A DNA stretch of 64,000 nt. It comes from a virus. Location: positions 320,001 through 384,000 of IMG/VR virus record IMGVR_UViG_3300028840_006907. One strand, written 5' to 3'. The translations under genes and the position numbers were made by a program. Below the pieces are notes generated by a model. It was not told where the DNA came from, made no database searches, and worked only from the letters and a program-made list of their open reading frames with translations. Within the stretch, counting starts at the first letter, position 1; each line of letters opens with the position of its first letter. Shown here in pieces: positions 616-62,958 of the stretch.

Positions 616-623
616 TTAATTCC

Positions 624-4765: not shown

Positions 4766-4788
4766 TTTATTCCTCTAATTTAAATATG

Positions 4789-5337: not shown

Positions 5338-5344
5338 TTTTTTC

Positions 5345-7081: not shown

Positions 7082-7084
7082 TTA

Positions 7085-7759
7085 CTATTCCCGGTAAAAA
7101 GGTGGAAAGGAAACCCAATCTTTCATTCCTTTTAGAACGAGTCCATCTACATCTACCTGCATTCCTCCTACTATTTGGATCATGGGTTTGAACTTTTCAC
7201 AAATTCTTTTTATAAATCGGAAATCATGTTCAGGTTCATGTCTCCAAGGTTCTTCGATGGCCCATTCTCTTTTTACTATATAACAAGGAGTACCTACGTG
7301 GCATATGATAGGAAACATATGAATATCAATTTCAGGAACAAGAACAATTGTCTCGGGATCTCCATCTTTATACATCCGGGATTGCTGACATGACATCTGT
7401 ACTATACCAATCATGTTGTCACGGCAATTTGAGATGAGTGTTTCGAGATAAGTATCTTTGTAACGATCATCATCATCACAAAATACTAGGTATTGTCCCC
7501 GAGAAATTTTTATACCGTGATTTCGTGGTTTCGTTCCTGGAGAGATATCCATATTACCGTAATCTTTTTCGATATTACAGAATTGTGTCCAGGGTCCAGC
7601 AGTTTTCATTAAGTTAATGACATCTACAGGAGGTGGTCCATCATATACTATTATATGTTCAAAATTTTTAAAAGTTTGGTTTTTGAAATCGTTAAGTAAA
7701 TTTGATAGTTCTCTTACACCGCGAGAAGCAGGGGTAATAACACTGATAGTTGGTCCCAT
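7085..7759 (-). CDS. GT2-family glycosyltransferase-like protein
   Basis: 224 aa; N-terminal ISVITPASRG...FEHIIVYDGPPP resembles the GT2 N-terminal region; CDDDD acidic cluster. Confidence 0.5.
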   Translation of the reverse strand: MGPTISVITPASRGVRELSNLLNDFKNQTFKNFEHIIVYDGPPPVDVINLMKTAGPWTQFCNIEKDYGNMDISPGTKPRNHGIKISRGQYLVFCDDDDRYKDTYLETLISNCRDNMIGIVQMSCQQSRMYKDGDPETIVLVPEIDIHMFPIICHVGTPCYIVKREWAIEEPWRHEPEHDFRFIKRICEKFKPMIQIVGGMQVDVDGLVLKGMKDWVSFPPFYRE

Positions 7760-21408: not shown

Positions 21409-23859
21409 TTATATTTTATTATTTTTTCTAAGGAGAGCTATCTGACGTTTAATCCATCGAGGAGTTTCTTCAAGAGTTTCAGCCATTTGATTTCTTGTCA
21501 TCTTTCCACGATTATCTATTATGAATTGGAGCTTTTCTTCAGTCTTTCTATCTTTGGTACAACCAATAGGGTTTTTTGTAGATAATGTACCTTTTTTTTG
21601 TAAGAATTTTATTTGAGATTTAACCCATCGCTCTGTTTCATTGAGAGCTTTAGATAATTCTTTTTTAGTTTTATTTTTATAATTAGTGATTATATACTGC
21701 GTTTTTTCAGGGGTTCTTCTACATTTTGTTGAGAATTTAGAAATCTCTTTTAAATAGGTAAATTTCTCAGTGGGTTGTTTAATATTTATATCTTCAATAC
21801 ATTTTGAATTATATATTTCTTTTTCTCTTTTAGGATAAGGTTTAGTAACATAATTTTTTAATTTGTTAATTTTTTTCTTATCTCTTTTATTTTCACCTAT
21901 TAATAAGACATATTTATGTTTTCTTTCAGTAATAAATTTTTGAGCTTCAGATAATATATTTTTATTCCAATTATTCCATTGAACTTTAATTCCTTCTGGT
22001 ATGGTACTCATATTTTTAAAACCATTTTCTTTAAACCATTCCTTTTGAGAAATAATCCCTTGATTTTTACACCATTTTTTAAATGCTGATGTACGTTTTA
22101 GAGATTGAGCTGAAAAAGTCCTATTATTTTTAATGGAAGGATGTTTATATAAGTATGAACTTCCAAAGTTATTTCCTAGATAATCAAATCCACAAGCTTG
22201 GTAAATAGTCCCTATTTCAAGAGCTTTAGGATCAGCATAACCTATGAAAGCTCTTTTAGAAGTGTTATTAGCCATCCAATTACAAGCAAACCTTATAAGA
22301 CGGCTACCCAGGTTTTTCGGGGTCCATGAGGCAGTGGCACCTCTTTGAATTAAAGCTTCATATTTGGGAGTATCTTTACCTAGAATTTTGGAATATGCTG
22401 TGGGTTCATTTATAAATAATACTCCTGCGAGAATATTATTGTATCTGGCTGTGAAGCACCATTTTGGTATTACTCCAATTGTTCCTAACCATTCATATTT
22501 TTTTATAAATTGGACCATTTCATTATTAAATTTTTCTTCAGATAATGTAAAAGAAGTAGCTTTTAAAGAAGAGTGATTGAAATCGATATTTTTTTTATCT
22601 TCATCAATCCATTGAAGTTTCTTTTTATATTGGTGGCATATAAAAGTGGTCTTGTTTTTACTGTTAATTTTATTTTTTATTAAATCAATGATAATACCTT
22701 TTCGGATAGCTTCTTTTACATCATCAGACCAAAATCTAATCAAATTGGGTATATTTTTATTTTGGATTTCATCATTCTTAATATTTTCTTTTATTTTTAA
22801 TGCCCTTGGAGACGTATCATTTTCTCTTATTTCTTTACCATGCCAATAATTACCATCATATTGTACCCATAAGTTATAGCGAGGCATATAGAAATCAATT
22901 ACATGTTTAATAATTGGGTGCATAACTTGATGTTCTACAAAAGGATCAAATACAATAAGATAATTAAAAAAGTTATTTTCTTCATCTGAGGATGAGAAGG
23001 AATTATTTAGTTTAACTGTTTTATATGTTTTTTCTTTTATTTCAACATTCTGTTGGGGATTTTCAACGCCATATCTTTCAATATTAGTTTCAGTGATTTT
23101 TTTCTTAATCTCTGGAGATTGGAATACATTGTCAACCCCGTATCTTGATTGTACTGTTACTTTAACTTTTCTTTTTACTTCTTTAGATTGAGAGGGGTAT
23201 TCTACTCCTCGTTTTTCAATATTAGATTGACGGGATTTTTCTTTCATTGAGTTTAGTTGAGTAGAATATTCTACGCCATAACGTTTTTTAATAGTTTCGT
23301 TATTATGTTTAACTATATCTTCATTTATTTTATCTCGATTCCTTCTTAATCCTAGTTTAATAGCTCTTTCTCGGATGGCTTTCCAGGTCCTGTTTTCAAA
23401 GTAGAGCATAATAAATTCCATAGAATTCTTTTCATATACTTCTTTTAAAAGATCATCTTCTTTGGGTGACCAGAAGTCTTCCCTAGCAGGAGCGCTTTTA
23501 CCACCATCAATCATTTCTTGTTTAATTATTTCAGGATTTCTTTGAAGGTTTAATTTTTGAGCATTACTTCGGATGCTTTGCCATGATCGATTCTTGAATT
23601 TAGAAAGGATAAATTCTTTTGAATTATTTTCATATATATTTTTAAGAATATTTATCTCTTCGGTTGTCCAGGAATCTTTTCTTGGTCCTCTTTTTTTACG
23701 GTCTTCATTTATAAGGTCAGGATTACGGTGAAGATTTAGCTTACGTGCTTTTCTACAGATGGTTGTCCAAGATTTATTTAATTTGGAGATAATAAATTCT
23801 TTTGAATTATTTTTATATATTTCTTTTAATAAATTTTCTTCTTCTATTTTCCAACGCAT
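21409..23859 (-). CDS. multidomain hypothetical protein: N-terminal triplicated helical repeats, YGV(E/D)N repeats, possible Vsr/PD-(D/E)xK-like nuclease core
   Basis: Start set at second Met (MRWKIEE) with AAGAGG RBS; track start is 23916. Three ~50-aa repeats (SWTTEEINILKNIYENNSKEFI...); three RYGVxNxxQ repeats; VIDFYMPRYNLWVQYDGNYWHG resembles a Vsr/DUF559-type core. Only minus-strand gene in the plus-strand block. Confidence 0.5.
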   Translation of the reverse strand: MRWKIEEENLLKEIYKNNSKEFIISKLNKSWTTICRKARKLNLHRNPDLINEDRKKRGPRKDSWTTEEINILKNIYENNSKEFILSKFKNRSWQSIRSNAQKLNLQRNPEIIKQEMIDGGKSAPAREDFWSPKEDDLLKEVYEKNSMEFIMLYFENRTWKAIRERAIKLGLRRNRDKINEDIVKHNNETIKKRYGVEYSTQLNSMKEKSRQSNIEKRGVEYPSQSKEVKRKVKVTVQSRYGVDNVFQSPEIKKKITETNIERYGVENPQQNVEIKEKTYKTVKLNNSFSSSDEENNFFNYLIVFDPFVEHQVMHPIIKHVIDFYMPRYNLWVQYDGNYWHGKEIRENDTSPRALKIKENIKNDEIQNKNIPNLIRFWSDDVKEAIRKGIIIDLIKNKINSKNKTTFICHQYKKKLQWIDEDKKNIDFNHSSLKATSFTLSEEKFNNEMVQFIKKYEWLGTIGVIPKWCFTARYNNILAGVLFINEPTAYSKILGKDTPKYEALIQRGATASWTPKNLGSRLIRFACNWMANNTSKRAFIGYADPKALEIGTIYQACGFDYLGNNFGSSYLYKHPSIKNNRTFSAQSLKRTSAFKKWCKNQGIISQKEWFKENGFKNMSTIPEGIKVQWNNWNKNILSEAQKFITERKHKYVLLIGENKRDKKKINKLKNYVTKPYPKREKEIYNSKCIEDINIKQPTEKFTYLKEISKFSTKCRRTPEKTQYIITNYKNKTKKELSKALNETERWVKSQIKFLQKKGTLSTKNPIGCTKDRKTEEKLQFIIDNRGKMTRNQMAETLEETPRWIKRQIALLRKNNKI

Positions 23860-23962
23860 ATGAGTACCTCTTTTTAGTATATTACTTATTATAACAGGTA
23901 TTAGAGTTATTGTCAATATTTCATTTAATAAATATGGAATTCATTAATTTATAGGGAAAAAG

Positions 23963-44800: not shown

Positions 44801-47800
44801 ATGGCTTTTATGTTTAGACTAACAGTTGACAAGGATATGGTCGCCGGAACGGATAAGAGTAATTATCCTTTACTTGTTGATGACCGAGTAGCTAATTTTC
44901 CATCTTCATTCTTTTCGAATGTTGTTGATGCTAGTGGTTTAGATATTAGATATTATTCTGATGCAGCAAAATCAGTAGAGTATAGTAGGGAAATAGTAAC
45001 AGTTGATACTACTGCTCAAACATTTGAATCTTGGGTTCAAATACCATTATTATCTGCTTCCAGTGATTCTACTTTTTATTGTGAAGTGGGGGATGCCACA
45101 TCAGCTAATGATTTTACTATTTGGGATTCTCAAAACCATTATCGTGTATTTCATTTACAAGATGCTTCTGATTCAGGAACTTTACACGATCCTTTAATTG
45201 TAAATAATGCCTCATCTGTATCGAGTAAAATACAGAAAGGTTATGATTTCAGTGGAACCACTCATCATTTACAATGTACTACTAATCCTGATTTTCAGCA
45301 AACATACCCATTTTATATTTCTTCTTGGGTAAACTTAAGATCTCTTATAGTATCGCCTACATTTATTGATAGTGTCTCGTGTATATTTAGTCGTGAAGTA
45401 ATTTGTCAGACGACACTTAGGAATTGGATAGCTTTCAATTTTGGTATTGATAGTTCTCAAAGACTGTCTTGGATGTGTGGAGAAAATCTTTCTGGATGTG
45501 TATTGCCCGGACAACATACTGATTGGTATACTTCTGATAATACGGTTTCATTAAATCAATGGATCCATGTAGGAGCATATATTGAAAATTTATATACAGC
45601 TACTCCAAATCGTGTCGTAAAGTTATTTGTTGATGGGAGTCAGATACCTTCTACAGAAGGTAATCTTGGAGATATTGTAAATTATCACAATACACATAAT
45701 CTAGCTCAATTATCAAGGATTGGTGCTGGGTACCGGCAAACAGGTATACCAATACAAAATTTTGATGGTATTATTGATGAAGTAAGAATAGTCAGTGATG
45801 CAACTATATATTCTAATGGTGACTGGCAACAAACGGAATTTAATAATCAAAATGATCCTTCAACTTATATCTTGGCACCTGATACTACGGGGGTCTATTT
45901 TATTAATGCCGCTGGATCAAGTACTTATCCCTACGATACTGAAGCAAAAGGAGCTGTTAATTTAAAAGATTTACTTGATAGTGTTTCTCTTAATGATGGT
46001 GATATAATAGAAGTCTCTGATGCAGGTGGTACAATAGATGACTCTGCTGCTAGTCCGGGTAATATAAATGCCTCAGTAACAATTAGGTCTTATTCTGGAA
46101 ATACAGGTAATCCAACTTTTAAAGTTCGTGATAGTAGTTATTTATTTTTATTTAATGGTGTGACAGTAGATGGCGTTTATATTCAAAACATAGATATGTA
46201 TAAAGCCGGAACTGGTTCTACCTCTATCGCTTTCATTTGGTTTTTAACTTGTGATATATCAAATTTTGAAGTAACTAATTGTAACTTCTCAATAACCGGA
46301 ACTGCTGGCTCGGTAGCTGCTGTGGAATTAGACACTTCTGATCTTCATGGAACTTCCAGGTTTGAATATAATACAATAACTAAGATGAGTGCTGGACTAT
46401 ATATCAGAGACAATTGTTCTGTCTTTGAAGATTTTAGTGCTTCTTATAATACGTATAATGATATTAGTTATGGTAGTATTAAAGCTTTTCTTCTTGTCGG
46501 AACTCTAAGTACTATACAAAGAATTGTTGTTGATAATAATTATGGTACTGATAGTGGACTAACTTTTGTCTTTATGGCAGGTACTGCAGGTCAAACCTGT
46601 GATGACATTAAAATAAGAAATAATGTTATTAACTCAATGGATTCATTTCATTTTAATACCATAAATTTAGCTGCTCCTACTTTGACGAATTCAAGTGTTG
46701 TTAATAATTCATTATTTCAAGCTGGGGGTATATTTGTAAATAATGCTGATGCTAATCTAGTTGTAGCTAATAATACTCTAAGTCGAGGCTCGGAATCTTG
46801 GTTCATTTATGCTATTCAAGTTACTGCTGCAGCAGGAGCTTCTTTCAATAACAATAATATTTATGGTTATACAAACCCATATTTTGTAAGTGGTGGCATT
46901 ACATATGGTACAAGTAATACACAATTGGATCCTCTTTATGATAGCACTTCTAATCTCCATCTCCAAGCTGGAAGTCCTTGTATAAAAACCGGTGCAAGTT
47001 ACGGAGTCTATTCTTCAGTACCTACAACAGGTTATGATGGTACTGCCCGACAGAGTCTTGTCTGTGATATTGGTGCTTATGAAACTACTCCTAATACTTA
47101 TTTTGTAAATAATGGTGGATCTGCTACATATCCTTTTGATACTGAAATAAAAGGTGCTGTTAATTTCAATCAATTACTTGGTGTTATAACTTTATCAAAT
47201 TGGGATACAGTTGAAGTAAGTAATGCTGGTGGTACAATTGATGATTCGACTGCTTTTCCTAATTTTATTAATGCTGCGGTAACAATTAGATCATATGCTA
47301 ATAATACAGCCAAACCTGTTATTCATGTAAAGAATACTGGAGCTTCAAGAGAGAGCCAGTTTCGTTGGGACAACTATCCTACTGTTTATTCATCAGATGC
47401 TGTAACAATACAAAATTTACAATTATATAAATCAGGTCCAAGTCCAAGTCAGCCCTTTATAAACGCCCGAACATGGGATTTCGATACTTTAGAAGTTACT
47501 GGATGTGATTTTTCAGTGACTGATCCAACTGGTGCTGTAAGTGCTGTACAAGGAGTTTATCTTGATGATTGTAATATCAATCAGAGTTTTACTTATCAGG
47601 ATAGTGACTCTTCCGGTGTAGACGGTGCCCTTTGGATTACTGATACTACTACTAAAACTATACAGGGTGTAAATATATCAGATCATATTTTTGAAGGGAA
47701 ATATTTATTTGTTTATATACAACCCGATACTCTTTCTGATGCTACTATTGAAACTAATGATGTAGGAGGATCAATTTTATGTGCTGGAACTTCTATAAAT

Positions 47801-50800
47801 AGTAGTGTAGCTATTAGGAATAATGTCGTTCGAAGTGTTTCAAGTTTGGCACCTTTAGGAATTTATACCACTGGAGCTGGTCAGAGTGTTGTAAATAATA
47901 CGATCAGAAATATCCCAGTTGGTGGTTATGGTATAAGATATCTTAGTGGTGGTGCAAATAGTTATGTTCTCAATAATATCGTTTATAGAGATGATACTGT
48001 GGGAGCTGCCACTGGAATCGAAACTTCATTTACAGCCGGTGTCATTGATTATAACAATGTTTATAATTTTGGCACACCTTATGTTTCTGGAGCAGTCACT
48101 CCAGGACCAAATAGTATTCAAGTTGATCCAATTTTTATTAGTTCTACAAATCTCCGTTTACAAAGTAATAGTCCTTGTATAAGAACTGGTATAGGTAGTG
48201 GGACTTATTCTGTAGTTCCATCGGTTGGATATGATGGTAATCCAAGATCTTCTGCTACTGTTGATATGGGAGCTTATGAATCTCTTTTACCCTCTGGACT
48301 TTTTCCTCCTCCCCTACCTATTTACGGTAATTATGAAACACCTGTTTCCTTAGGAAGTGGATCAGGTTATTACCACAAGCCTGCTGATTATTTAGGGCAG
48401 GAAACTAAAGGTGGTGGAGCTATTAAATTAGTGGCAAATTCAGGTAATGTTAGTATTAATGGTAGAATCAGAATGGATGGTCAGGATGGGACTATGACCG
48501 GGGGTGCCGCTGGAGGAAGTGTCTGGCTTATTGGTTGGAGAATAGATGGGACTGGAACAATAAGCGCAGATGGTGGAAGGACTCAATTGGTAAGTAATTC
48601 CGGTGGTGGAAGTGGTGGCTATATTTCAATGTGGCATCATAAAACTATAACTTATGATGGAACTGCAACTGTTGATGGTTATGATGGTGCCGGAGATGGA
48701 AAGATATTTATAAAAGAAATTGAGCCCATTTTAGAAGAGCCTTTTACAGGTGATATTTTAAATATAAAATGGTGGGATACTACGAATTCTGTAACCATAG
48801 ATAATGAACTCACTTTTGATTCACCAAATGATAATTATAATTTCCCGGAGACTTTATCGGAATTTAATATTTCAGGAAAAGAAATAAATGTTGAAGCAGA
48901 TTATACTTCACTCACTCCAGACTCATCTCAGAATACGGCAGCATTTCTATTGTGGGTCGATGATTTAAATTGGGCAGGAGTGGCACGGAAATTTAATGGC
49001 TTTTTTGGAATATCCTCTATAAATGGGGCTGTCTCTGTTTCAGGAGTGCCTTTTGATAATACGAATGTAACTTTCCGTATTCTTAAAAATGATAGTACTT
49101 TTACATATCAATTTTGGGATGCCACATCAACTCCTCAAACTATTTATATGGATTATCTGCCAGAATTGGCAAATAGTGTATTTAAAGTGAAGTTAACAGT
49201 TGATAAACCTCCACTGGGTGATTCACTACGTACAAGATATCAAAGATTAACTGCATTTGATATTTCAAATCAATATCTTTATATGGATGGGATTCCTATA
49301 GATCAATCAGCCGTTGCTATGAATTCTATTACTGGTACATCTCATTACTATGGAGAAGATTTTTATGTAGATAATTATCTTTTGAAATGGGATTATACAG
49401 CTTCTAATTTTGCTTCCCTTGCAGCGTGGGGTGATGTTGTCAGATATCAATATGAATATAATGCTCCGCCAACAAATGAGGTTACTGTAGCTTTCGATAA
49501 TGTAAGAGTATATGAAGGAGTTTTAAGTAATGCAGAAACAACTGAACCGGTTATCTATGTTGATCCTAATTATGGCTCAGATACCTGTTCTGGAAGACAG
49601 CTTGATCCTTTGAAAAATTTATTTGTAGCCACGGCTTGGGCTAAAAAAGGAAGTACAGTTGTATTGTATGATGGAACTCATAATCCTACTAAAGTATCCC
49701 GCAAAGACCTGACCATACGAGGAGCTGAAGGAAGTATTGCTGGAATTACTTCGAAAAATGTCCAGGATTCAACAGGTTCTAATTGGGAAAGAGATGCTCT
49801 TTCATTTTATGGCAGTCAAGGTATCGTAGAAAATGTGCATATTTTTGATAGTAGTAGAGGTATTGTAGTTGAGAATGGTAATTATGAAATATCTCGAAAC
49901 ACAATTACAGATACAAGTAATGCTGTAACCTTCGTCAAATGTGATCCTAGAATTATCCGAAATAAAATTTTGGATGTAGATTTTGGTCTTGATTTTACAT
50001 CTTGTCGAATTGCTCCTTATGCTTATGCTAATATTATATCAAATGCAGATGTAGCAGTTCGAGCTAATTTAACAACTGATATGACTTTTTCATGTAATAC
50101 TTTTGACAATGATCAGACCCATTTCTTGATTGATTCAAGTTCATCAATTATTATGTCGTCAAATAATTTGACATATAGTGTTATGCCAGTCATTGTTTCA
50201 ACAGATTCATGGTTTGGTTCTTATTATAATAACTTTTATCCTAATACGACACAATATAATAGGACCCCAGATGATGCTACTAACAATATTGTTGCAAATC
50301 CTTTATACTATGACCGAATTGGAAAGGATTTCCATTTAAATACTGGATCTCCTAATATAGGAACAGGGTCACTTACATATAATGATTATCTCTATGATTT
50401 TGATGGGGCTGATATTCGTAGTGCTGAAATAGGAGCATACCAATATATTGACAGTACTAAAATAACAAGTGACTATTATGTATCAAGTCATGGTAATGAT
50501 TATTGGAATTTCGGAAGACAGACTGACCCATTCCGGACTTTAGATAGAGCTATGGTAGATGCTGATTCTACTGTCCGTATTGATGGTGGTCATTATGATT
50601 CATTCTATCTTAATCTGAGATCACAGGATATACATTTAAATCAACTCTATATTTATTTAGGACCGGAACAACAATTTGTCTCATATATCACTTTAGATGC
50701 AGAAGATGCTTCAAATAAATATGTTCCTTTGCCAAGTTTTGTTGCACCAGATGATGCTTCCCATGTAGCTATGAATATCATAGGAAGTTCGGCACAAATT

Positions 50801-52126
50801 CAGGGAGAGGATTACATAGTAGAATGGGGTCATCTTGTATGGGATACTTATGATCTTGATGGTTTCCTTTCAGCGGGAGATACTTTAAGAGTAATTTTCT
50901 ACGGTCCTTTACAAAAGAAAGCATTAAATAATTTTGTTCTTCATGGGCATTATAGTAACTATAACCAGAATCAGGCAATTTTTGTATCACCGAGTGGAAG
51001 TGATAGCACTGATCTGGGAGGGGACGGGACCAATACAGGTGGAACTGGATCAAGAGATTTACCATACAGAACTATTAGTATGGCTCTGTCTCAATCAAAT
51101 TCGGGTGATAACATTGTAGCTATGGCTGGAGAGTATCCAGTATTTGATGGCCTTCAGGATCGGGTAATCGTTCCTGCCTTTGACCGGACCGCTGCAGTCA
51201 ATAGTTCAAAAAGGGTTTATGAGGATTTCTTTGCACAAAAAGATTTTAGAGCTTATGGTACAACTGAATATGATCCAACACCATGGGAATTTGATTATAC
51301 AGGAAATTCAGAAGTATTCGCAGGAGGAGGATTCTTAAACTTTACCTATGACGGATCGAACAGTGCTACAGCCACATCGACTTTTCAATTTACCAGTGAT
51401 TTTGAAGTAAGGGCTAATTTAAGAAATGCTGTGGATCCAATAACTCTTAGAGTAACTTCACCTGATACAACAGCCTTTATTAGTTATAACGAATCACAGT
51501 TTACTGCTGGTGTTATAAATACTGATAGTACAGTTATATGTAGTGCTGTGGCACATAGTGGTGATACTACTGAATCAGATGTTTTTGTTGTAGAATATAT
51601 TCCTGTAACATCGGATCATACTCGAAATAAATATGCCGAATTATCATATATTCCAGAGGGATCTGATTGTACCAATTTAGCTCTTAATGTTGTTGGGGGT
51701 AATACGCAGGATTTCGGTGAAGATTTCTATGTCCAAGATTCTAAAATTAAATGGGATGGTATGACAATGGATGGTGAAATAGAACCAGGTGAAGTTTTAA
51801 GAGCTGTTTACTTGGATCGACCTTTATCATTGGCTGTTACTGCTTCCATCACTCTTGAGAATGGTCTCTTTACTCTAAAGGCTTATGATGGTACTTGGAA
51901 TACTTTAATGAATAGAAGTTTGGTAGGAGATTATACCGGTAACTGGAATGTATCATTTACAATGGATACACCTAACGAAGAATTTAGTCATAATTGCATT
52001 TATGGTAAAGGATATGCGTCTCAATTCTTGGCAATAGCTGATTCTTTTGAGAATATTCAAGGTTTAGATAAGCCTTTGGCTGTCTCAACTGAGAGACGTA
52101 ATTTAGTTATATATGAAGAGAGGTAA
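44801..52126 (+). CDS. giant (2441-aa) surface protein: N-terminal DUF2341-like + LamG-like module followed by three right-handed beta-helix-like modules
   Basis: N-terminus FRLTVDKDMVAGTDKSNYPLLV...GLDIRYYSDAAKSVEYSREI; GIIDEVRIV; three modules ending NLHLQAGSPCIKTG...DIGAYE, NLRLQSNSPCIRTG...DMGAYE and FHLNTGSPNIGTG...EIGAYQ; N/T/S-rich repeat ladders. Confidence 0.6.
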   Translation: MAFMFRLTVDKDMVAGTDKSNYPLLVDDRVANFPSSFFSNVVDASGLDIRYYSDAAKSVEYSREIVTVDTTAQTFESWVQIPLLSASSDSTFYCEVGDATSANDFTIWDSQNHYRVFHLQDASDSGTLHDPLIVNNASSVSSKIQKGYDFSGTTHHLQCTTNPDFQQTYPFYISSWVNLRSLIVSPTFIDSVSCIFSREVICQTTLRNWIAFNFGIDSSQRLSWMCGENLSGCVLPGQHTDWYTSDNTVSLNQWIHVGAYIENLYTATPNRVVKLFVDGSQIPSTEGNLGDIVNYHNTHNLAQLSRIGAGYRQTGIPIQNFDGIIDEVRIVSDATIYSNGDWQQTEFNNQNDPSTYILAPDTTGVYFINAAGSSTYPYDTEAKGAVNLKDLLDSVSLNDGDIIEVSDAGGTIDDSAASPGNINASVTIRSYSGNTGNPTFKVRDSSYLFLFNGVTVDGVYIQNIDMYKAGTGSTSIAFIWFLTCDISNFEVTNCNFSITGTAGSVAAVELDTSDLHGTSRFEYNTITKMSAGLYIRDNCSVFEDFSASYNTYNDISYGSIKAFLLVGTLSTIQRIVVDNNYGTDSGLTFVFMAGTAGQTCDDIKIRNNVINSMDSFHFNTINLAAPTLTNSSVVNNSLFQAGGIFVNNADANLVVANNTLSRGSESWFIYAIQVTAAAGASFNNNNIYGYTNPYFVSGGITYGTSNTQLDPLYDSTSNLHLQAGSPCIKTGASYGVYSSVPTTGYDGTARQSLVCDIGAYETTPNTYFVNNGGSATYPFDTEIKGAVNFNQLLGVITLSNWDTVEVSNAGGTIDDSTAFPNFINAAVTIRSYANNTAKPVIHVKNTGASRESQFRWDNYPTVYSSDAVTIQNLQLYKSGPSPSQPFINARTWDFDTLEVTGCDFSVTDPTGAVSAVQGVYLDDCNINQSFTYQDSDSSGVDGALWITDTTTKTIQGVNISDHIFEGKYLFVYIQPDTLSDATIETNDVGGSILCAGTSINSSVAIRNNVVRSVSSLAPLGIYTTGAGQSVVNNTIRNIPVGGYGIRYLSGGANSYVLNNIVYRDDTVGAATGIETSFTAGVIDYNNVYNFGTPYVSGAVTPGPNSIQVDPIFISSTNLRLQSNSPCIRTGIGSGTYSVVPSVGYDGNPRSSATVDMGAYESLLPSGLFPPPLPIYGNYETPVSLGSGSGYYHKPADYLGQETKGGGAIKLVANSGNVSINGRIRMDGQDGTMTGGAAGGSVWLIGWRIDGTGTISADGGRTQLVSNSGGGSGGYISMWHHKTITYDGTATVDGYDGAGDGKIFIKEIEPILEEPFTGDILNIKWWDTTNSVTIDNELTFDSPNDNYNFPETLSEFNISGKEINVEADYTSLTPDSSQNTAAFLLWVDDLNWAGVARKFNGFFGISSINGAVSVSGVPFDNTNVTFRILKNDSTFTYQFWDATSTPQTIYMDYLPELANSVFKVKLTVDKPPLGDSLRTRYQRLTAFDISNQYLYMDGIPIDQSAVAMNSITGTSHYYGEDFYVDNYLLKWDYTASNFASLAAWGDVVRYQYEYNAPPTNEVTVAFDNVRVYEGVLSNAETTEPVIYVDPNYGSDTCSGRQLDPLKNLFVATAWAKKGSTVVLYDGTHNPTKVSRKDLTIRGAEGSIAGITSKNVQDSTGSNWERDALSFYGSQGIVENVHIFDSSRGIVVENGNYEISRNTITDTSNAVTFVKCDPRIIRNKILDVDFGLDFTSCRIAPYAYANIISNADVAVRANLTTDMTFSCNTFDNDQTHFLIDSSSSIIMSSNNLTYSVMPVIVSTDSWFGSYYNNFYPNTTQYNRTPDDATNNIVANPLYYDRIGKDFHLNTGSPNIGTGSLTYNDYLYDFDGADIRSAEIGAYQYIDSTKITSDYYVSSHGNDYWNFGRQTDPFRTLDRAMVDADSTVRIDGGHYDSFYLNLRSQDIHLNQLYIYLGPEQQFVSYITLDAEDASNKYVPLPSFVAPDDASHVAMNIIGSSAQIQGEDYIVEWGHLVWDTYDLDGFLSAGDTLRVIFYGPLQKKALNNFVLHGHYSNYNQNQAIFVSPSGSDSTDLGGDGTNTGGTGSRDLPYRTISMALSQSNSGDNIVAMAGEYPVFDGLQDRVIVPAFDRTAAVNSSKRVYEDFFAQKDFRAYGTTEYDPTPWEFDYTGNSEVFAGGGFLNFTYDGSNSATATSTFQFTSDFEVRANLRNAVDPITLRVTSPDTTAFISYNESQFTAGVINTDSTVICSAVAHSGDTTESDVFVVEYIPVTSDHTRNKYAELSYIPEGSDCTNLALNVVGGNTQDFGEDFYVQDSKIKWDGMTMDGEIEPGEVLRAVYLDRPLSLAVTASITLENGLFTLKAYDGTWNTLMNRSLVGDYTGNWNVSFTMDTPNEEFSHNCIYGKGYASQFLAIADSFENIQGLDKPLAVSTERRNLVIYEER

Positions 52127-53496: not shown

Positions 53497-53613
53497 CTAA
53501 TTGATTTTGAAGAAGTTACAAGAACTGCTCAAAAAACATCTTAATTTATCCTTCGCTCATTCAGTATATATAGTATAAGGATCTATATAAAAAATAATAG
53601 AAAGGAATAATAT

Positions 53614-55116
53614 ATGGATGTAACATTAGCAGGATTTAATGTCGATACAAATGTCCTTAGGGAGATGGAAGAAATCACCGGTAAACGGGATGATCTTACC
53701 CCAGAAGTTTTATCTGCCTCATATGCCCGGATAAGTCGGGATCCTCGGCCAATTGGTGAATTAAGATTAGATTCTAAAAACGAAGTAGAAAAAGCTCGGA
53801 AATCAAATTCAAGTATCATTTTTAAAATGGGCCATCATTCTGTAGCGGAGCATGCTGTATTTAATCTTGATGTTGTAGGACTTTCTCGATATGCTATTGA
53901 AGAGTTGGAAAAATTTCGATTATGTTCATATACAGAAAAATCTCAACGTTATATAACCCTTGATGATGACTATGTTGTTCCTCCTGAGATTGCTGGATCA
54001 AAGTTTGAAGATGAATTTAGGGAAACTATTAAAATGCAGAATGAAGCATACCATGAATTTTACGGTGCTTTAAAAGAACATATCTTTAAAAAGCATGCTG
54101 ATCTTGCCAGTGATCCAAAGAATAAGAATTTATTAGAAGGTTGGGCAAAGGAAGATGCCAGGTATTTAGTAAGCATTGCGACTGAAGCTCAGGTTGGAGT
54201 GACCGTCAATGCCCGAAACTTGGAACTGATGTTAAGAAGATTTGCTTCTAATCCGTTGCAGGAAGTCCAGGAACTGGGGAGAAAAATTTACCAGGAGGTG
54301 GAAAAAATTGCCCCTTCTATAATTATTTTCCATGAAGGTAATGAGTATGACCGTGATACATATCCTAGACTTGAAAAAGTAGGACGTGATTTATTTAATG
54401 GAAGCCATGTCTCATTTTTGGAAGGAGATGTCTCATTAATTGAATTTGATGAAGAAGCAGATGAAACTATAGCTGCATCATTACTTTATAAAGGTCTGAA
54501 TATCCCTTATAAAGATGTCATAACATTTGTTTATGATATGAGTGAAGAGGATACTGATAAAATTGTTAATGCTGTTTGGGAAGATGCCCAATTATATGAT
54601 TCGGCCCTCAGAGAATACGAATTTGCCAATCTTACCTATGAAGTCTGTTTATCTTCCTCTTGTTTTGGTCAACTAAAACGTCATCGTATGTCTTCTATTA
54701 TTGCTCAACCATACAATCCGAACAGAGGTGTGACTATTCCAGAATCGATTAAAGAGATTGGTATGGAAAAGAGATTTCAGGAGATTATTAAAAAGACAGA
54801 TGATGTATTTTTTAAGGTATACGAAGATTTACCATTGGTAGCTCCTTATATATTAACAAATGCTCATAAAAGACGGGTCATAATTCGGGTAAATGCTCGT
54901 GAGTTATATCATATGTCCCGATTAAGAGAGGATAATCACGCTCAATGGGATATAAAAAATGTGGTGACTAGAATGTGCATGTTGGCTCAGACAGAGATGC
55001 CATTTACATTTGCTCTTCTTTGTGGTAAAGACATGTATAATATGACATATAAAAATCATTTCGGTAATGAACCAAAAGTGAAAGAGGTGAAATTACCAGG
55101 TAAGCGTAAATTTTAA
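53614..55116 (+). CDS. thyX: ThyX-like flavin-dependent thymidylate synthase, double-length (two ThyX-like halves)
   Basis: 500 aa; N-half has ARISRDPRP, HHSVAEH and SYTEKSQRY with RHR replaced by FRL; C-half carries KRHRMSS. Roughly twice the usual ThyX length. Confidence 0.6.
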   Translation: MDVTLAGFNVDTNVLREMEEITGKRDDLTPEVLSASYARISRDPRPIGELRLDSKNEVEKARKSNSSIIFKMGHHSVAEHAVFNLDVVGLSRYAIEELEKFRLCSYTEKSQRYITLDDDYVVPPEIAGSKFEDEFRETIKMQNEAYHEFYGALKEHIFKKHADLASDPKNKNLLEGWAKEDARYLVSIATEAQVGVTVNARNLELMLRRFASNPLQEVQELGRKIYQEVEKIAPSIIIFHEGNEYDRDTYPRLEKVGRDLFNGSHVSFLEGDVSLIEFDEEADETIAASLLYKGLNIPYKDVITFVYDMSEEDTDKIVNAVWEDAQLYDSALREYEFANLTYEVCLSSSCFGQLKRHRMSSIIAQPYNPNRGVTIPESIKEIGMEKRFQEIIKKTDDVFFKVYEDLPLVAPYILTNAHKRRVIIRVNARELYHMSRLREDNHAQWDIKNVVTRMCMLAQTEMPFTFALLCGKDMYNMTYKNHFGNEPKVKEVKLPGKRKF

Positions 55117-57216: not shown

Positions 57217-58233
57217 ATGAGTTGTGGCGTGGATATAGGAACATGTTTCCTTGTAAGTGCTAGAAATGATGATAATAATCAAATTCAAATAAAGTCTATT
57301 CGGGATGCTTTTCTTGACATGGAGAACAACCCCCAAGTCAAAAACATGATGAAAATGTCAGGTGCAAATTTTATTGAATCTGACGACATTCTTTACATAA
57401 TTGGTGATTCCTCAGTGGTAGTAGCAAACATATTCCAGAAAGAAGCTCGTAGACCATTGAGTCGGGGTGTTATTTCTCCTGGTGAACTTGAAGCTGAGAA
57501 AATTCTGTTGGTTTTGATAAAGGATATATTGGGGAATTGTAAAGTGCAGGATGAAACTTGTTATTATTCGGTTCCTGCCGAGCCCATAGATCATGAAGCT
57601 GATGTGATCTATCACCAAGCTATGTTTAGTAAACTTATTGGTTCATTAGGTTACAAGCCAGTTGCTTTAAATGAGGCAGCAGCAATCATTTATAGCAATT
57701 GTGGAAAGGAAAAATTTTCGGCGATATCTATTTCTTTTGGTGCCGGTTTAACAAATGTTTGTCTTATGTATCAAACGATTATTGGTATGGCTTTTAGTGT
57801 AAATAAAGCTGGAGATAATATTGATGACGGTGCTGCTCAGGCTCTGGGAACTACTTCCAGTAGAATACAGTCAATAAAAGAAAAGGGTATAAATCTTCTT
57901 GATCCTAATGAAGGTGATCCGAAGACTTTCCGGGAACGTGAAGCTATTATCATTTATTATAAAAGTTTGGTTTTATATGTACTTGATAAAATCAAAGAGG
58001 AATTTTTGAAACGTCAAGGTACGATTGAATTACCTAATGCTATTCCGATTGTGCTTTCAGGTGGAACTAGTTTGCCGAAGAATTTTAAAGAGTTTTTTGA
58101 AGCCGGTTTTAATGAAGTAAAGGATAAATTCCCAATTCCGATTTCAGAGATTAGAATGGCAGAACAACCATTAAATGCAGTAGCACAGGGTCTATTAATT
58201 GCCGCTATGAACCATGATGAAGGGTCAAAATAA
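57217..58233 (+). CDS. actin-fold ATPase (MreB/ParM/Alp-like, ASKHA superfamily)
   Basis: 338 aa; AAGGAGG RBS; N-terminal GVDIGT phosphate-1-like motif, VLSGGTS and C-terminal NAVAQGLLIAAM. Confidence 0.55.
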   Translation: MSCGVDIGTCFLVSARNDDNNQIQIKSIRDAFLDMENNPQVKNMMKMSGANFIESDDILYIIGDSSVVVANIFQKEARRPLSRGVISPGELEAEKILLVLIKDILGNCKVQDETCYYSVPAEPIDHEADVIYHQAMFSKLIGSLGYKPVALNEAAAIIYSNCGKEKFSAISISFGAGLTNVCLMYQTIIGMAFSVNKAGDNIDDGAAQALGTTSSRIQSIKEKGINLLDPNEGDPKTFREREAIIIYYKSLVLYVLDKIKEEFLKRQGTIELPNAIPIVLSGGTSLPKNFKEFFEAGFNEVKDKFPIPISEIRMAEQPLNAVAQGLLIAAMNHDEGSK

Positions 58234-60156: not shown

Positions 60157-62958
60157 ATGGGACTTGGCCCTTTTGATTCGTTTTCGTTTCCTGATGTGTA
60201 TACGAAAACATTGAATGAAGCGCCTACCGTAACTGCGTCTGGAGATATCCGCATTCCTGCTTTTATTGGAGTAGCTGATGAAAATGTTCCTGTTAATAAC
60301 TATGAAATGATTCGCGGTTCAAGTGCATTGGCCGATAATAAAATAGTTAGGGAAAATGTTTCCAGTCAGGTAACAGGTAGTAACCGTAATTTTAGAGTCT
60401 CTTACTATCCTATTGTAAAAGGGGATGGTAATGGTACCACTACGACAGATCCAAACGATGTAACGGTTGAGGTTGATGGAGAAGCAGTTGCAGTCTCATC
60501 AGTTGACGGAGAGAATGGTTGGATTTATCTAGTAGGTATCCCACCAACAGGAAGTACAGTGCTTATCACTTATTATTTCAAACGTAATGATACATTACAT
60601 ACATTGGAAGATCTCAGTGATCAGGTTGATGGTACACGTACTGTTTTTCAAACACATTATACTCCGATTGTAACAGGTGATGGTAGTGGTACAACTACAA
60701 CAACTACTTCTCATGTTACAGTTTTAGTAAACAATTCAGCGGTTACTGTTTCTGCAGTGGATGGAGATTCAGGTCAAATTACTCTAGCTTCTGCACCATC
60801 GGTTGGTCAGACAGTGAAAGTAACTTATTATTCTAATGAATGGCAAGATACGGCAGATATCTTACCTTCACCTTATGTTACAGAAGTAACACAGGTAGGT
60901 TATAGCCCAGGTACATCTGATTTTATTGATGAGACAGACTATGTTCTTGATACAACAGGGAATTTTAGTACAATAAACTGGGGCCATTCAGTAAAAGTTA
61001 GTGCCGGTACAACAACAACAGGTGGTGAAGCTTTTGATGATACACAAATCACTACTACTCTGTTTGATAATCGGACATTTCGTAGAGCTATGACAGGTAC
61101 TGTTGATGGTACTAATGCAAATTTTGTGATGGAAGCTACTCCGAAGAGTGGTGAAGGTCGTGGTATTGATACTGATGATCCCGATCTTGTTACAGCTTAT
61201 TATGGTACTAATCCAACAGATGCTACAGTTATAGATGTAATTCAATTAACAGCTTCTTCAAGAACGGCTGTTTTGGCATCTGCTCCTCCAGCAGGAAATA
61301 ATGTCTATATCACTCAATATAGCAATTTACTTCCTGATGATACTTGGACTTTAACTGATAAGACTTCCGGTGCTACAGGTATTGGAGTTTATGATGTTGA
61401 GGGTACTAATGCTGGTACGGCTATGGACGTTCAGTGGTCAACAACTGATACAACAGTTGCTGATCCAGATTTCTCTTCTGAGAATGTGACTTATCCGAAT
61501 GGTACCGGTGCAGGTAACAGTGATGCTCAAGTGTCGCCTGGATTTGCTGTTCAAGAAACGGTATCTTTAACTTTTGCCGATGCTACCACTTATACTGTAA
61601 GTTCAGACCAGACAAGTACTGGTTCTGGTTCAGGTGGCGATAATACAGGATATTTAAATCAAACTTACATTGACAGTGTAACGGGTTTCCGTATTACTGT
61701 TAATGAGGGTACATTAGTTATATATCAGGCGGGTGATAAATTAGGTTATACTGTTAATCCTGATTTTGTCACTTCTACGACACCAACAAGAGCAATACCA
61801 GGTGTTCGTGTAAGAGTATCTAATACTACTGATGTAGTGGTAGGAGATACAGGTTTAGTAAAAACGTATAATTTATCAGGACAAGAACCGAATGTTGGAG
61901 ATTTCTATTATGTCTCTTTTACTGAAGCTGTACAATTTGATTCTGATGGTATTCTCATAGGTGGAGCTAAATTATACAGTCAGGAGAAAAATGTAATAGC
62001 TGATACAGGTCCTTTATCTATAACAAATAATCTTGGAATGGCCGCTCATCTTGCTTTTTTGAACGGTTCAAGTTTAATTGCCTTACTACAGATAGAGAAG
62101 ACATCCGGTGCTGATGATGCCCCTGATTCAAGGTATATTGCGGGTATTGATTATTTCAATGAGCCCATGGAAGGTGGTACAAGACCAGCTCTTATGCAAC
62201 CAGTAACAACTTCATCTGCGGTTATCAATTATTTGAGAACTTCAAATACCATTCAATCTGGTATACGTTATGCGAATGAACGTTTCTCTTATTTTGGTTT
62301 CCCGACAAATACGTTACCAACGAGTGCTCAGACTTTTGCTCGATCAATGAATAATGAGTTGATGGTAGCTGTTTATCCTGATGGTGCTGTGACAACTATC
62401 ACGGATGAATTAGGTAATGAGACTGAATATTTGGTAGATGGAGCTTATATGGCAGCAGCGATTGCTGGAAGAGATACTTCACCTGCTTTCGATGTAGCAG
62501 AACCATTGACAAGAAAACCTATTGTAGGATTCCGTCGTTTATTCCGTAGAATGGATTCGGTAACTGCTGCACAAACGGCAAATGCTGGTATAACTCTTCT
62601 TGAAGAGTTAGCTGCAGGTATTGAGGTTAGATTTGCTTTGACAACTGATATATCATCGGTATTAACGAGAACTCCTTCAGTTATTAGAATAAAGCAATTT
62701 GTTCAGAGAGGGGCTCGTTCGGTATTACAGCCTTATATTGGTTCCAAGCTATTAGTTCAACGTAGAGCAGAAATAGAGCAGACTCTTAAGTCTTATCTAG
62801 CTGCCTTACAGCAAGCTAATATTATTACTGGTTGGACAGGTGTAAAGGCTGAACTGGATCCGAATGATCCGACGATTATTAATGTGGAAGCTTTTTATAG
62901 CCCAGTATTTCCGTTGTTATGGATTGTGATTACTTTTAATCTTCGTTCTAATATATAA
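60157..62958 (+). CDS. large structural protein with two tandem Ig-like insert domains; weak resemblance to phage tail sheath C-terminal region
   Basis: 933 aa; AGGAGG RBS; two ~70-aa repeats (VSYYPIVKGDGNGTTTTDPNDVTVEVDG..., YTPIVTGDGSGTTTTTTSHVTVLVNN...). The sheath resemblance is recalled by eye and is low confidence. Confidence 0.5.
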   Translation: MGLGPFDSFSFPDVYTKTLNEAPTVTASGDIRIPAFIGVADENVPVNNYEMIRGSSALADNKIVRENVSSQVTGSNRNFRVSYYPIVKGDGNGTTTTDPNDVTVEVDGEAVAVSSVDGENGWIYLVGIPPTGSTVLITYYFKRNDTLHTLEDLSDQVDGTRTVFQTHYTPIVTGDGSGTTTTTTSHVTVLVNNSAVTVSAVDGDSGQITLASAPSVGQTVKVTYYSNEWQDTADILPSPYVTEVTQVGYSPGTSDFIDETDYVLDTTGNFSTINWGHSVKVSAGTTTTGGEAFDDTQITTTLFDNRTFRRAMTGTVDGTNANFVMEATPKSGEGRGIDTDDPDLVTAYYGTNPTDATVIDVIQLTASSRTAVLASAPPAGNNVYITQYSNLLPDDTWTLTDKTSGATGIGVYDVEGTNAGTAMDVQWSTTDTTVADPDFSSENVTYPNGTGAGNSDAQVSPGFAVQETVSLTFADATTYTVSSDQTSTGSGSGGDNTGYLNQTYIDSVTGFRITVNEGTLVIYQAGDKLGYTVNPDFVTSTTPTRAIPGVRVRVSNTTDVVVGDTGLVKTYNLSGQEPNVGDFYYVSFTEAVQFDSDGILIGGAKLYSQEKNVIADTGPLSITNNLGMAAHLAFLNGSSLIALLQIEKTSGADDAPDSRYIAGIDYFNEPMEGGTRPALMQPVTTSSAVINYLRTSNTIQSGIRYANERFSYFGFPTNTLPTSAQTFARSMNNELMVAVYPDGAVTTITDELGNETEYLVDGAYMAAAIAGRDTSPAFDVAEPLTRKPIVGFRRLFRRMDSVTAAQTANAGITLLEELAAGIEVRFALTTDISSVLTRTPSVIRIKQFVQRGARSVLQPYIGSKLLVQRRAEIEQTLKSYLAALQQANIITGWTGVKAELDPNDPTIINVEAFYSPVFPLLWIVITFNLRSNI

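What the first reader, a model, noticed from the sequence alone, without database searches (positions are those of the whole stretch)
53614..55116. Double-length ThyX-like protein with catalytic motifs split between halves
At 500 aa the protein is about twice typical ThyX length. The N-half carries ARIS, HxSVxEH and SxRY-like motifs but has FRL where RHR is expected, while the C-half carries KRHRMSS. ThyX active sites form at subunit interfaces, so a fused pseudo-dimer with motifs partitioned between halves is plausible.
Basis: partly seen in the sequence, partly recalled or inferred. Interest (0 to 1): 0.5.

Follow-up and report, generated by a model that had tools for sequence, protein, structure and literature searches.

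The report
Tandem ThyX with complementary half-sites
This gene encodes a double-length flavin-dependent thymidylate synthase whose two diverged copies each keep only part of the active site, a real and neat arrangement that belongs to a large, already-annotated family and so is not a new kind of enzyme.

Summary
The 500-aa ORF at 53614-55116 (+) is real. Each half is a significant ThyX (Pfam Thy1) domain on its own (N-half E=7e-37, C-half E=3e-21), and family profiles of the two halves match each other (hhalign 97% probability).

The split is systematic. Across 139 tandem homologues (36-72% identity), the N-half always keeps the dUMP loop (E108, S110, R112, Y113), R92, R183 and the H74/S76/E79/H80 block, while its RHR-equivalent positions drift. 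The C-half always keeps Q353, R356-H357-R358, R438 and H-A-Q-W, while its dUMP-loop positions drift or are deleted.

Mapped onto the published three-subunit ThyX active site, this predicts that a dimer of tandem chains forms a pseudo-tetramer with two complete and two degenerate sites.

The architecture is not new. At least 583 bacterial species representatives, some named DPANN-archaeal MAG proteins, and Microcystis phages (Ma-LMM01 by fold, MaMV-DC by sequence) carry it, all annotated as thymidylate synthase. A 2009 paper already noted an uncharacterised "duplicated ThyX".

The gene here sits in a probable huge phage-like element (389-470 kb contigs). Verdict: observation confirmed, interpretation supported, new member of a known kind.

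The parts
53601..53606 (+). Shine-Dalgarno-like AAAGGA, 7 nt upstream of the ATG
   Evidence: Read directly from the sequence.
53614..55116 (+). Complete CDS of the tandem ThyX (500 aa plus stop)
   Evidence: Pfam Thy1 E=1.2e-58 with two matched stretches. TIGR02170 127.5 bits, above the cut-off of 87.9.
53614..54348 (+). N-terminal ThyX domain (aa 1-245). It keeps the dUMP-binding loop and the H/S/E/H block but has a degenerate RHR.
   Evidence: Pfam Thy1 E=6.9e-37 when scanned alone. Best PDB sequence match is M. tuberculosis ThyX over aa 69-238. 33 columns are at least 97% conserved across 139 homologues.
53833..53853 (+). H74-H-S-V-A-E-H80, equivalent to T. maritima H53, T55, E58, H59 and M. 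tuberculosis S71 (the FAD/folate-side residues of the second subunit role)
   Evidence: H74, E79 and H80 are invariant or near-invariant and S76 is S in 134 of 139. Mapping. Role from PMC6514825.
53911..53919 (+). K100-F101-R102, the degenerate counterpart of the RHR ThyX motif
   Evidence: Alignment. Across 139 homologues the first position is H31/K25/R21/S19/A13, the second is H40/F35/S19/R12, and the third is R in 139 of 139.
53935..53952 (+). E108-K-S110-Q-R112-Y113, the dUMP-binding loop (T. maritima E86, S88, R90, Y91; M. tuberculosis Q103, S105, R107, Y108)
   Evidence: E108, S110 and R112 are invariant in 139 of 139 and Y113 in 135 of 139. Role.
54160..54162 (+). R183, equivalent to T. 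maritima R147
   Evidence: R in 138 of 139 in the N-half. The C-half equivalent P411 drifts (P27/E26/D22/A18). The dUMP-phosphate role of R147 is from my memory of the T. maritima structures, not from a tool result.
54349..54465 (+). Inter-domain linker (aa 246-284), poorly conserved
   Evidence: Mean top-residue frequency is 0.24 against 0.55 (N-half) and 0.47 (C-half). The AF2 model shows a helix at 244-261 followed by coil.
54466..55083 (+). C-terminal ThyX domain (aa 285-490). It keeps RHR, R174 and HAQW but lacks the dUMP loop.
   Evidence: Pfam Thy1 E=2.8e-21 for aa 251-500 scanned alone. T. maritima ThyX matches aa 386-468. hhalign against the N-half profile gives E=1.8e-11.
54670..54687 (+). 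Q353-L-K-R356-H357-R358, the intact ThyX RHR motif plus the T. maritima Q75 equivalent
   Evidence: R356, H357 and R358 are invariant in 139 of 139 and Q353 in 137 of 139. Role (FAD phosphate, ribityl and isoalloxazine contacts, plus dUMP).
54925..54948 (+). R438-E-D-N-H442-A-Q444-W445, equivalent to T. maritima R174, H178, Q180, W181
   Evidence: R438 is R in 138 of 139, Q444 in 138 of 139, W445 in 137 of 139 and H442 in 112 of 139. R174 activates dUMP (PMC8316439).

Best explanation
The gene encodes a functional flavin-dependent thymidylate synthase (ThyX, dUMP to dTMP) built as a single-chain pseudo-heterodimer of two anciently duplicated ThyX domains. In canonical ThyX, each of the four active sites of the homotetramer is assembled from three subunits. 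One subunit gives RHR and R174 (role 1). A second gives the S/T55-region residues and R165 (role 2). A third gives the dUMP loop ExSxRY and an upstream Arg (role 3). Here the C-half has specialised as the role-1 donor, and the N-half serves as both the role-2 and role-3 donor. Two chains should pair into an N2C2 pseudo-tetramer, with the true twofold axis relating like halves. That gives two complete active sites (role 1 from a C-half, roles 2 and 3 from the two N-halves) and two degenerate sites, which is one catalytic site per 500-aa chain. The domain identities, the residue partition and its conservation are shown here. The oligomeric state, the two-plus-two site count and the enzymatic activity are inferred. 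In this probable huge phage-like element, the enzyme most likely boosts dTMP supply during replication. It was probably acquired from a bacterial lineage such as Omnitrophota, whose proteins are the closest named cellular relatives.
For: Both halves are ThyX domains, and their family profiles match each other (hhalign 97.3%). In 120 close homologues the split is nearly invariant. In 139 divergent tandem sequences at 36-72% identity, N-half role-2 and role-3 residues are invariant while its role-1 positions drift, and the C-half shows the reverse. Subunit roles come from the published M. tuberculosis complex: RHR 95-97 and R199 from subunit A; S71 and R190 from subunit B; Q103, S105, R107, Y108 and R87 from subunit C (PMC6514825). 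The whole protein passes the thyX equivalog cut-off. Cellular homologues at 50-63% identity occur in at least 583 species representatives. The same split is seen in a 40%-identical copy on another huge viral contig and in Microcystis phage MaMV-DC; the 491-aa Microcystis phage LMM01 protein matches the full-length fold at 16% identity. The gene is retained in a syntenic relative of this element.
Against: There are no biochemical data for this protein. The oligomeric state and the arrangement of the halves could not be modelled, because only single chains can be predicted and no coordinates are returned. The AF2 model is moderate (pLDDT 75.8, pTM 0.69), with the lowest confidence exactly on the catalytic loops. 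A strict dead-site model does not explain why the N-half keeps R102 (T. maritima R80) in 139 of 139 sequences, or why the C-half keeps E336, Y367, N427 and R429 (T. maritima E58, Y91, N163, R165). The assignment of T. maritima R147, H53 and Q75 to particular subunits rests on my memory of the structural literature, not on a tool result.
Confidence: 0.75

Rival explanations
1. The C-half is a non-catalytic scaffold (a pseudo-enzyme domain). The N-halves alone form the active sites, with K100 and R102 standing in for RHR.
For: The C-half is less conserved overall (mean 0.47 against 0.55; 15 against 33 near-invariant columns). It scores lower against ThyX profiles. It lacks the dUMP loop.
Against: The C-half residues that are invariant are exactly the cofactor- and substrate-contacting ones: Q353, R356-H357-R358, R438, Q444, W445. 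The N-half counterparts of R78 and H79 drift through H/K/R/S/A and H/F/S/R/T, which is not how functional active-site residues behave.
Confidence: 0.07
2. The enzyme is a ThyX-fold flavoenzyme with a different substrate or product, for example a pyrimidine-nucleotide methylase or hydroxymethylase that feeds phage DNA hypermodification, and not a dTMP synthase.
For: The element also carries a Mom-like DNA-modification domain protein. From my own knowledge, ThyX homologues with other substrates exist, such as the UMP C5-methylase PolB of polyoxin biosynthesis.
Against: All dUMP-contacting residues of canonical ThyX are present in the composite site. The protein passes the thyX equivalog threshold. 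It is 58-63% identical to chromosomal proteins of many bacterial MAGs annotated as FAD-dependent thymidylate synthase. No family-specific changes are seen at the substrate loop.
Confidence: 0.08
3. All four sites of the pseudo-tetramer still bind a dinucleotide. The two degenerate sites have been repurposed (see the novel case) and are not dead.
For: The residues of the would-be second site that survive are the ones that contact the ADP part of FAD in canonical ThyX: N-half R102 in 139 of 139, and C-half E336, N427, R429. M. tuberculosis ThyX can bind NADP+ in the FAD pocket (PMC6514825). The family also has new invariant residues at former catalytic positions: E96 at the T. maritima R74 position and R333 at the H53 position.
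Against: Most role-1 contacts are lost in the N-half (R78, H79, H178, Q180, W181; R174 is kept in only 82 of 139). T55 is deleted in the C-half. The retained residues may simply be structural.
Confidence: 0.1

Closest known systems
Canonical single-domain ThyX / FDTS (T. maritima TM0449, M. tuberculosis Rv2754c, H. pylori, PBCV-1 A674R; Pfam PF02511, TIGR02170)
   Same: Same fold and family for both halves. All residues that contact FAD and dUMP in the canonical site are present somewhere in the chain. The same reaction is expected.
   Different: The canonical enzyme is a homotetramer of roughly 210-260-aa subunits with four identical sites, each subunit playing all three roles. Here two diverged domains are fused in one 500-aa chain and the roles are divided, so only two complete sites are predicted per pseudo-tetramer. 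No solved structure has this architecture: every PDB hit is 258 aa or shorter and covers only one half.
'Duplicated' ThyX noted in Chloroflexi and 'a few other species' (Valas & Bourne 2009, PMC3224940), and the ~500-aa proteins annotated 'FAD-dependent thymidylate synthase' in Omnitrophota, Elusimicrobiota, Aminicenantes, Margulisiibacteriota and DPANN archaea
   Same: Same two-domain architecture. The window protein is 50-63% identical over its full length to these bacterial proteins and shares the same conserved split of motifs. DPANN representatives (P0136, P0244) are 40-46% identical.
   Different: Those are chromosomal genes of cellular MAGs, while this copy sits in a probable huge phage-like element. 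The 2009 paper states that the duplicated form 'has not been characterized'. I found no paper describing the complementary partition. I did not test whether the Chloroflexi proteins belong to this same clade.
Tandem-size thymidylate synthase of Microcystis phages Ma-LMM01 and MaMV-DC (ORF20L, AGR48585.1)
   Same: A phage-encoded, double-length ThyX. The LMM01 protein matches the full-length fold (486 columns, TMq 0.56). In MaMV-DC the N-half carries GHGS and QERSTRY without RHR, and the C-half carries NRHRS.
   Different: Only about 16% identity in the structural alignment. Pfam does not detect its C-half. The virus lineage (Fukuivirus, 169 kb) and the host (a cyanobacterium) are different.
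Chlamydia trachomatis ThyX (CT632), from my own memory and not verified here
   Same: I recall it as about 529 aa, roughly twice the usual ThyX length, and enzymatically characterised as an FAD-dependent thymidylate synthase (Griffin et al., J Biol Chem 2005). If it has the same architecture, activity of a tandem ThyX is already demonstrated.
   Different: I could not retrieve the sequence or the paper, so neither its length nor its motif partition was tested.
Herpesvirus monomeric dUTPase (analogy only, from my own knowledge)
   Same: A nucleotide-metabolism enzyme whose active site is normally built between subunits became a double-length single chain through duplication, with the conserved motifs redistributed between the two halves.
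   Different: An unrelated fold and reaction.

Membership tests
ThyX / Thy1 flavin-dependent thymidylate synthase (PF02511, TIGR02170) | Significant match to the family profile above the curated threshold | tested here: met
   PF02511 198.5 bits against 24.8 for the whole protein; 127.5 bits (N-half) and 76.6 bits (C-half) when scanned alone. TIGR02170 127.5 bits against 87.9 for the whole protein. The C-half alone scores 47.6 bits, below that equivalog cut-off.
ThyX / Thy1 flavin-dependent thymidylate synthase (PF02511, TIGR02170) | ThyX motif RHR followed by the S-x-R-Y substrate loop within one domain | tested here: not met
   Neither domain has the complete motif. The N-half has K-F-R followed by an intact E-K-S-Q-R-Y. 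The C-half has an intact R-H-R followed by a shortened loop without E, S or R. The motif is complete only when the two halves are combined.
ThyX / Thy1 flavin-dependent thymidylate synthase (PF02511, TIGR02170) | Full set of FAD- and dUMP-contacting residues available to assemble an inter-subunit active site | tested here: met
   Role 1 comes from the C-half (Q353, R356, H357, R358, R438, H442). Role 2 comes from the N-half (H74, S76, E79, H80, R201). Role 3 comes from the N-half (R92, E108, S110, R112, Y113, R183).
ThyX / Thy1 flavin-dependent thymidylate synthase (PF02511, TIGR02170) | ThyX fold | tested here: met
   The AF2 model (pLDDT 75.8) gives Foldseek probability 1.00 to M. tuberculosis and T. 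maritima ThyX chains, TM 0.55-0.67 normalised to the target. Which half aligned is not reported, so the C-half fold rests on the profile hits and on the full-length match to the LMM01 protein.
ThyX / Thy1 flavin-dependent thymidylate synthase (PF02511, TIGR02170) | 222-symmetric tetramer with four active sites | not testable with these tools
   Only single chains can be predicted and no coordinates are returned. A dimer of tandem chains (pseudo-222) is inferred from the residue partition.
ThyX / Thy1 flavin-dependent thymidylate synthase (PF02511, TIGR02170) | FAD-, NAD(P)H- and CH2-THF-dependent conversion of dUMP to dTMP | not testable with these tools
   Needs an enzyme assay or thyA complementation.
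Tandem (two-domain) ThyX subfamily | Length of about 440-570 aa with two Thy1 domains, and full-length homology to other tandem members | tested here: met
   Of the top 120 hits, 118 are 500-509 aa and all cover 99-100% of the query at 58-72% identity. In the exhaustive search, 445 representatives at 50% clustering score E<=1e-30, and 137 of the best 150 are 440-600 aa.
Tandem (two-domain) ThyX subfamily | Complementary partition: substrate loop only in the N-half, RHR and HAQW only in the C-half | tested here: met
   The window protein carries every family-invariant residue listed.

The most novel reading that the evidence does not exclude
The two 'degenerate' sites of the pseudo-tetramer are not dead. 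They have been repurposed as dedicated dinucleotide-binding sites (a second FAD, or NAD(P)H) that serve the reductive half-reaction or regulate the two catalytic sites. They would be built from the residues that stay invariant there (N-half R102; C-half E336, Y367, N427, R429) together with the family-specific invariants E96 and R333. Tandem ThyX would then separate in space the NAD(P)H oxidation and methyl-transfer steps that canonical ThyX performs by a ping-pong mechanism in a single pocket.
Probability: 0.1. Interest if true: 0.6.

Novelty: new member of a known kind. Interest (0 to 1): 0.3.

Why it matters
For this window it matters little. It is a thymidylate synthase gene in a large phage-like element, a common kind of auxiliary nucleotide-metabolism gene.

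The family-level pattern is more useful. Tandem ThyX is a natural experiment that assigns the three subunit roles of the ThyX active site to two different polypeptide segments, so the conservation pattern alone shows which residues act together. A single chain with one catalytic site per 58 kDa and fixed asymmetry would be a convenient system for studying inter-subunit catalysis, half-of-sites behaviour and inhibitor binding in ThyX, which is an antibacterial target absent from humans. No tandem ThyX structure is in the PDB copy searched.

The high identity to Omnitrophota proteins is also a weak clue to the host range of this uncultivated huge element.

Tried and rejected
- **Fusion or assembly artefact:** rejected. 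The identical protein was read on 6 contigs, a syntenic relative carries a 72%-identical copy, and the database holds thousands of full-length homologues.
- **Direct BLASTP of N-half against C-half:** only 21% identity, E=0.27. Pairwise sequence comparison cannot show the duplication, but profile-profile comparison does.
- **AFDB50 fold search** (to get UniProt names such as Chlamydia): the library was not available.
- **Linking to the characterised Chlamydia ThyX:** the Griffin 2005 JBC paper and the Leduc 2004 PNAS paper are not held. Searches for CT632 and for Chlamydia ThyX gave no information on size or domains. Names of ten distant cluster representatives gave DPANN archaea, not Chlamydiae.
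- **Literature searches for tandem, fused or duplicated ThyX**: only the one-sentence remark in Valas & Bourne 2009. Stern et al. 2010 does not mention it.
- **Residue-level subunit assignment of T. maritima R147, H53 and Q75:** not found in the held papers.
- **Identity of the element:** most ORFs have no Pfam or PHROG hit. 'Huge phage' rests on a Mom-like/HNH fusion, a sub-threshold tail-sheath hit, lectin-like and beta-helix giant proteins, the absence of tRNA or housekeeping genes in 64 kb, and contig size. It is probable, not proven.
- **Synteny with the other viral contig carrying a tandem ThyX (L083):** none beyond thyX itself.
- **Promoter and terminator scan around the gene:** counts no better than shuffles.
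Full report
**1. The observation**

The ORF at 53614-55116 (+) starts with ATG and encodes 500 aa without interruption. An AAAGGA ribosome-binding-like site lies 7 nt upstream of the ATG. The next gene starts 11 nt after the stop codon.

Each half, scanned alone, is a significant ThyX domain. Pfam PF02511 gives E=6.9e-37 for aa 1-250 and E=2.8e-21 for aa 251-500. The whole protein passes the curated thyX equivalog threshold of NCBIfam (TIGR02170, 127.5 bits against a cut-off of 87.9).

The two halves are very diverged from each other. BLASTP gives 21% identity and E=0.27. Family profiles of the halves do recognise each other (hhalign probability 97.3%, E=1.8e-11, 23% identity over 133 columns). 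The protein is therefore an ancient internal duplication of a ThyX domain.

Alignment with M. tuberculosis and T. maritima ThyX places K100-F101-R102 opposite R-H-R, not F-R-L.

**2. The split of catalytic residues is systematic and conserved**

I aligned both halves of 120 close homologues (58-72% identity) with T. maritima ThyX. Its segments agree with the alignment printed, and its numbering agrees with the mutant names in PDB entry titles: H53A, S88A, R90A, Y91F, E144R, R174A.

I then repeated the analysis on 139 tandem sequences. These were 137 representatives from an exhaustive search at 50% clustering (36-49% identity to the query), plus the window protein and one viral copy.

| Domain | Conserved (of 139) | Drifting or lost |
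|---|---|---|
| N-half | S41, H74, R92 (= Mtb R87), R102 (= Tm R80), E108, S110, R112 all 139; E79, H80, R183 (= Tm R147), R201 138; Y113 135; S76 134; N199 133 | Tm R78 position: H31/K25/R21/S19/A13. Tm H79 position: H40/F35/S19/R12. Tm R174 position is R in only 82. The HAQW motif is lost. |
| C-half | E336, R356, H357, R358 all 139; R438, Q444 138; Q353, W445 137; R429 136; Y367 135; N427 130 | Tm S88 position: P43/A27/T14. Tm R90 position: P51/D27/N11. Tm R147 position: P27/E26/D22/A18. Mtb R87 position: A108/S26. The loop after RHR is 3-4 residues shorter. |

This pattern shows complementary relaxation of selection, not random decay. The window protein carries every family-invariant residue.

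**3. Mechanistic reading**

A review of the M. tuberculosis ThyX-FAD-FdUMP complex (PMC6514825, read) assigns one active site to three subunits:

- Subunit A gives RHR 95-97 and R199. These contact the FAD phosphate, ribityl and isoalloxazine, and dUMP.
- Subunit B gives S71 and R190, which contact FAD.
- Subunit C gives the Q103 backbone, S105, R107, Y108 and R87, which contact dUMP and form the lid.

The alignments give the equivalents in the window protein. Mtb R95-R97 correspond to R356-R358 in the C-half but K100-R102 in the N-half. The N-half supplies S76 (= Mtb S71), R92 (= R87), E108 (= Q103), S110 (= S105), R112 (= R107) and Y113 (= Y108).

The C-half has therefore kept the role of subunit A, and the N-half has kept the roles of subunits B and C. 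In a 222-type tetramer built from two tandem chains, this fits an arrangement where like halves are related by the true twofold axis. Two sites are then complete (role 1 from a C-half, roles 2 and 3 from the two N-halves). The other two sites would need role 1 from an N-half and roles 2 and 3 from C-halves, so they are degenerate.

This step is inference. Only single chains could be modelled and no coordinates are returned. The AF2 model has pLDDT 75.8 and pTM 0.69, with the lowest confidence on the catalytic loops at 67-76, 105-112 and 437-445.

Some conservation is not explained by a simple dead-site model. The N-half keeps R102 in all 139 sequences. The C-half keeps E336, Y367, N427 and R429. 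New invariant residues appear at former catalytic positions: E96 at the Tm R74 position and R333 at the Tm H53 position. These residues may be structural, or they may mean the second pair of sites still binds a dinucleotide. I list that possibility as the novel case, at low probability.

**4. How common and how known is this architecture?**

- The large protein database holds 4644 hits at E<=1e-5 among the 8000 candidates scored. The top 120 cover 99-100% of the query, 118 of them are 500-509 aa, and those with a source name are called 'FAD-dependent thymidylate synthase' or 'thymidylate synthase (FAD)', mostly from Candidatus Omnitrophota MAGs.
- A scan of one genome per species found at least 583 loci. 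The organisms include Omnitrophota, Elusimicrobiota, Fibrobacterota, Margulisiibacteriota, Auribacterota and Aminicenantes/Acidobacteriota.
- The exhaustive representative search found 445 clusters at E<=1e-30. Two distant ones are named from Nanoarchaeota and Woesearchaeota MAGs.
- No PDB entry has the tandem architecture. All hits are 258 aa or shorter and cover one half only.
- Among viruses, IMG/VR gave one other tandem copy, on a 372-kb contig at 40% identity. Its N-half reads W-H-R and its C-half reads R-H-R.
- The viral structure library gave a full-length structural match to the 491-aa thymidylate synthase of the isolated Microcystis phage LMM01.
- The homologue in Microcystis phage MaMV-DC (ORF20L) shows the same partition: GHGS and QERSTRY without RHR in the N-half, NRHRS in the C-half. 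Pfam cannot detect its C-half.
- From memory, the enzymatically characterised Chlamydia trachomatis ThyX is also about twice the normal length. I could not verify this with the tools.
- I found no paper that describes the complementary partition.

**5. Genomic setting**

The window lies on metagenomic contigs of 389 kb (JGI 3300017963) and up to 470 kb. It has about 35% GC and no tRNA genes in 64 kb. Most ORFs have no Pfam or PHROG match.

The identifiable genes are:

- an 834-aa protein combining HNH/homing-endonuclease-like, D5-like and Mom-like DNA-modification regions;
- lectin-like (Laminin_G_3) large proteins;
- a 2441-aa protein whose shorter homologue in a relative has NosD/beta-helix hits;
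- a sub-threshold phage tail-sheath C-terminal hit in a 933-aa protein;
- a Volactin-family actin homologue;
- several glycosyltransferases.

This fits a huge tailed phage or similar element but does not prove it.

A relative on an 18.6-kb ENA contig has the same gene order around a 72%-identical thyX, so the gene is a stable component of this lineage. The closest named cellular proteins (58-63% identity) are from Omnitrophota and other PVC-group MAGs. That suggests, but does not show, acquisition from such a host.

**6. Verdict**

The protein is a member of the ThyX family by profile, fold and composite residue set. Neither domain alone carries the full ThyX motif. It is a new, virus-borne member of a known and widely annotated tandem-ThyX kind, so novelty is modest.

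The mechanistic prediction of one composite site per chain and two per dimer is testable and may not have been spelled out in print. I rate interest at 0.3.

Noticed in passing
window 57217-58233 (+): A 338-aa actin-fold protein matches the Pfam Volactin family end to end (PF25216, E=1.2e-63; MreB_Mbl only faintly). From my own knowledge, Volactin was named after a haloarchaeal actin. Here it sits in a probable huge phage-like element and is conserved in the syntenic relative L084. It could be a virus-encoded cytoskeletal protein and a clue to the host.
   Followed up: partly
window 21409-23916 (-): An 834-aa protein combines HNH/homing-endonuclease-like regions, a D5-like N-terminal region, DUF7487 and a Mom-like DNA-modification domain (PHROG 1384 E=4.7e-18; Pfam Mom E=1.2e-10). 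It is one of only two ORFs of 120 aa or more on the minus strand between 8 kb and the end of the window, the other being embedded in a plus-strand gene. It hints that the element modifies its DNA.
   Followed up: no
window 44801-52126 (+): A 2441-aa ORF with no Pfam hit on record. By eye it contains long internal near-repeats, for example 'YFINAAGSSTYPYDTEAKGAVNLKDLL...' and 'YFVNNGGSATYPFDTEIKGAVNFNQLL...'. Its positional homologue in the relative L084 is only 1394 aa and has NosD/beta-helix hits. It may be a fibre-like protein of variable length.
   Followed up: no
window 60157-62958 (+): A 933-aa protein has a sub-threshold match to the phage tail sheath C-terminal domain (PF17482, E=8e-4, 19.8 bits against a cut-off of 26.9). 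This is the only structural hallmark found for calling the element a tailed phage.
   Followed up: no
window 1-7759 (-): The left end is a minus-strand block rich in glycosylation genes: a GT2 plus methyltransferase fusion (2711-4765), a GT10 fucosyltransferase-like protein (1287-2090) and a GtrB-like protein (7085-7759). GC skew is negative here and turns positive where the genes switch to the plus strand near 8 kb.
   Followed up: no
window 53899-53901 (E96) and 54610-54612 (R333): Two family-specific invariant residues replace canonical catalytic positions. E96 in the N-half sits at the T. maritima R74 position (E in 136 of 139). R333 in the C-half sits at the T. maritima H53 position (R in 134 of 139). 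Their conservation has no explanation in the simple two-live, two-dead-site model.
   Followed up: partly
L085 2034-3386 (Microcystis phage MaMV-DC ORF20L): This annotated 'putative thymidylate synthase' (450 aa) is a tandem ThyX whose C-terminal half Pfam does not detect. That half still carries an RHR motif, and the 491-aa LMM01 protein matches the full-length fold. Tandem ThyX in phages may be under-recognised by profile annotation.
   Followed up: partly
P0160 (250 aa), P0265 (277 aa), P0198 and P0257 (325-329 aa): A few database representatives correspond to only the N-half (66% identity over aa 1-250) or only the C-half (50% identity over aa 231-499). They could be truncated gene calls at contig ends, or true split two-gene versions of the enzyme. 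I did not check which.
   Followed up: no
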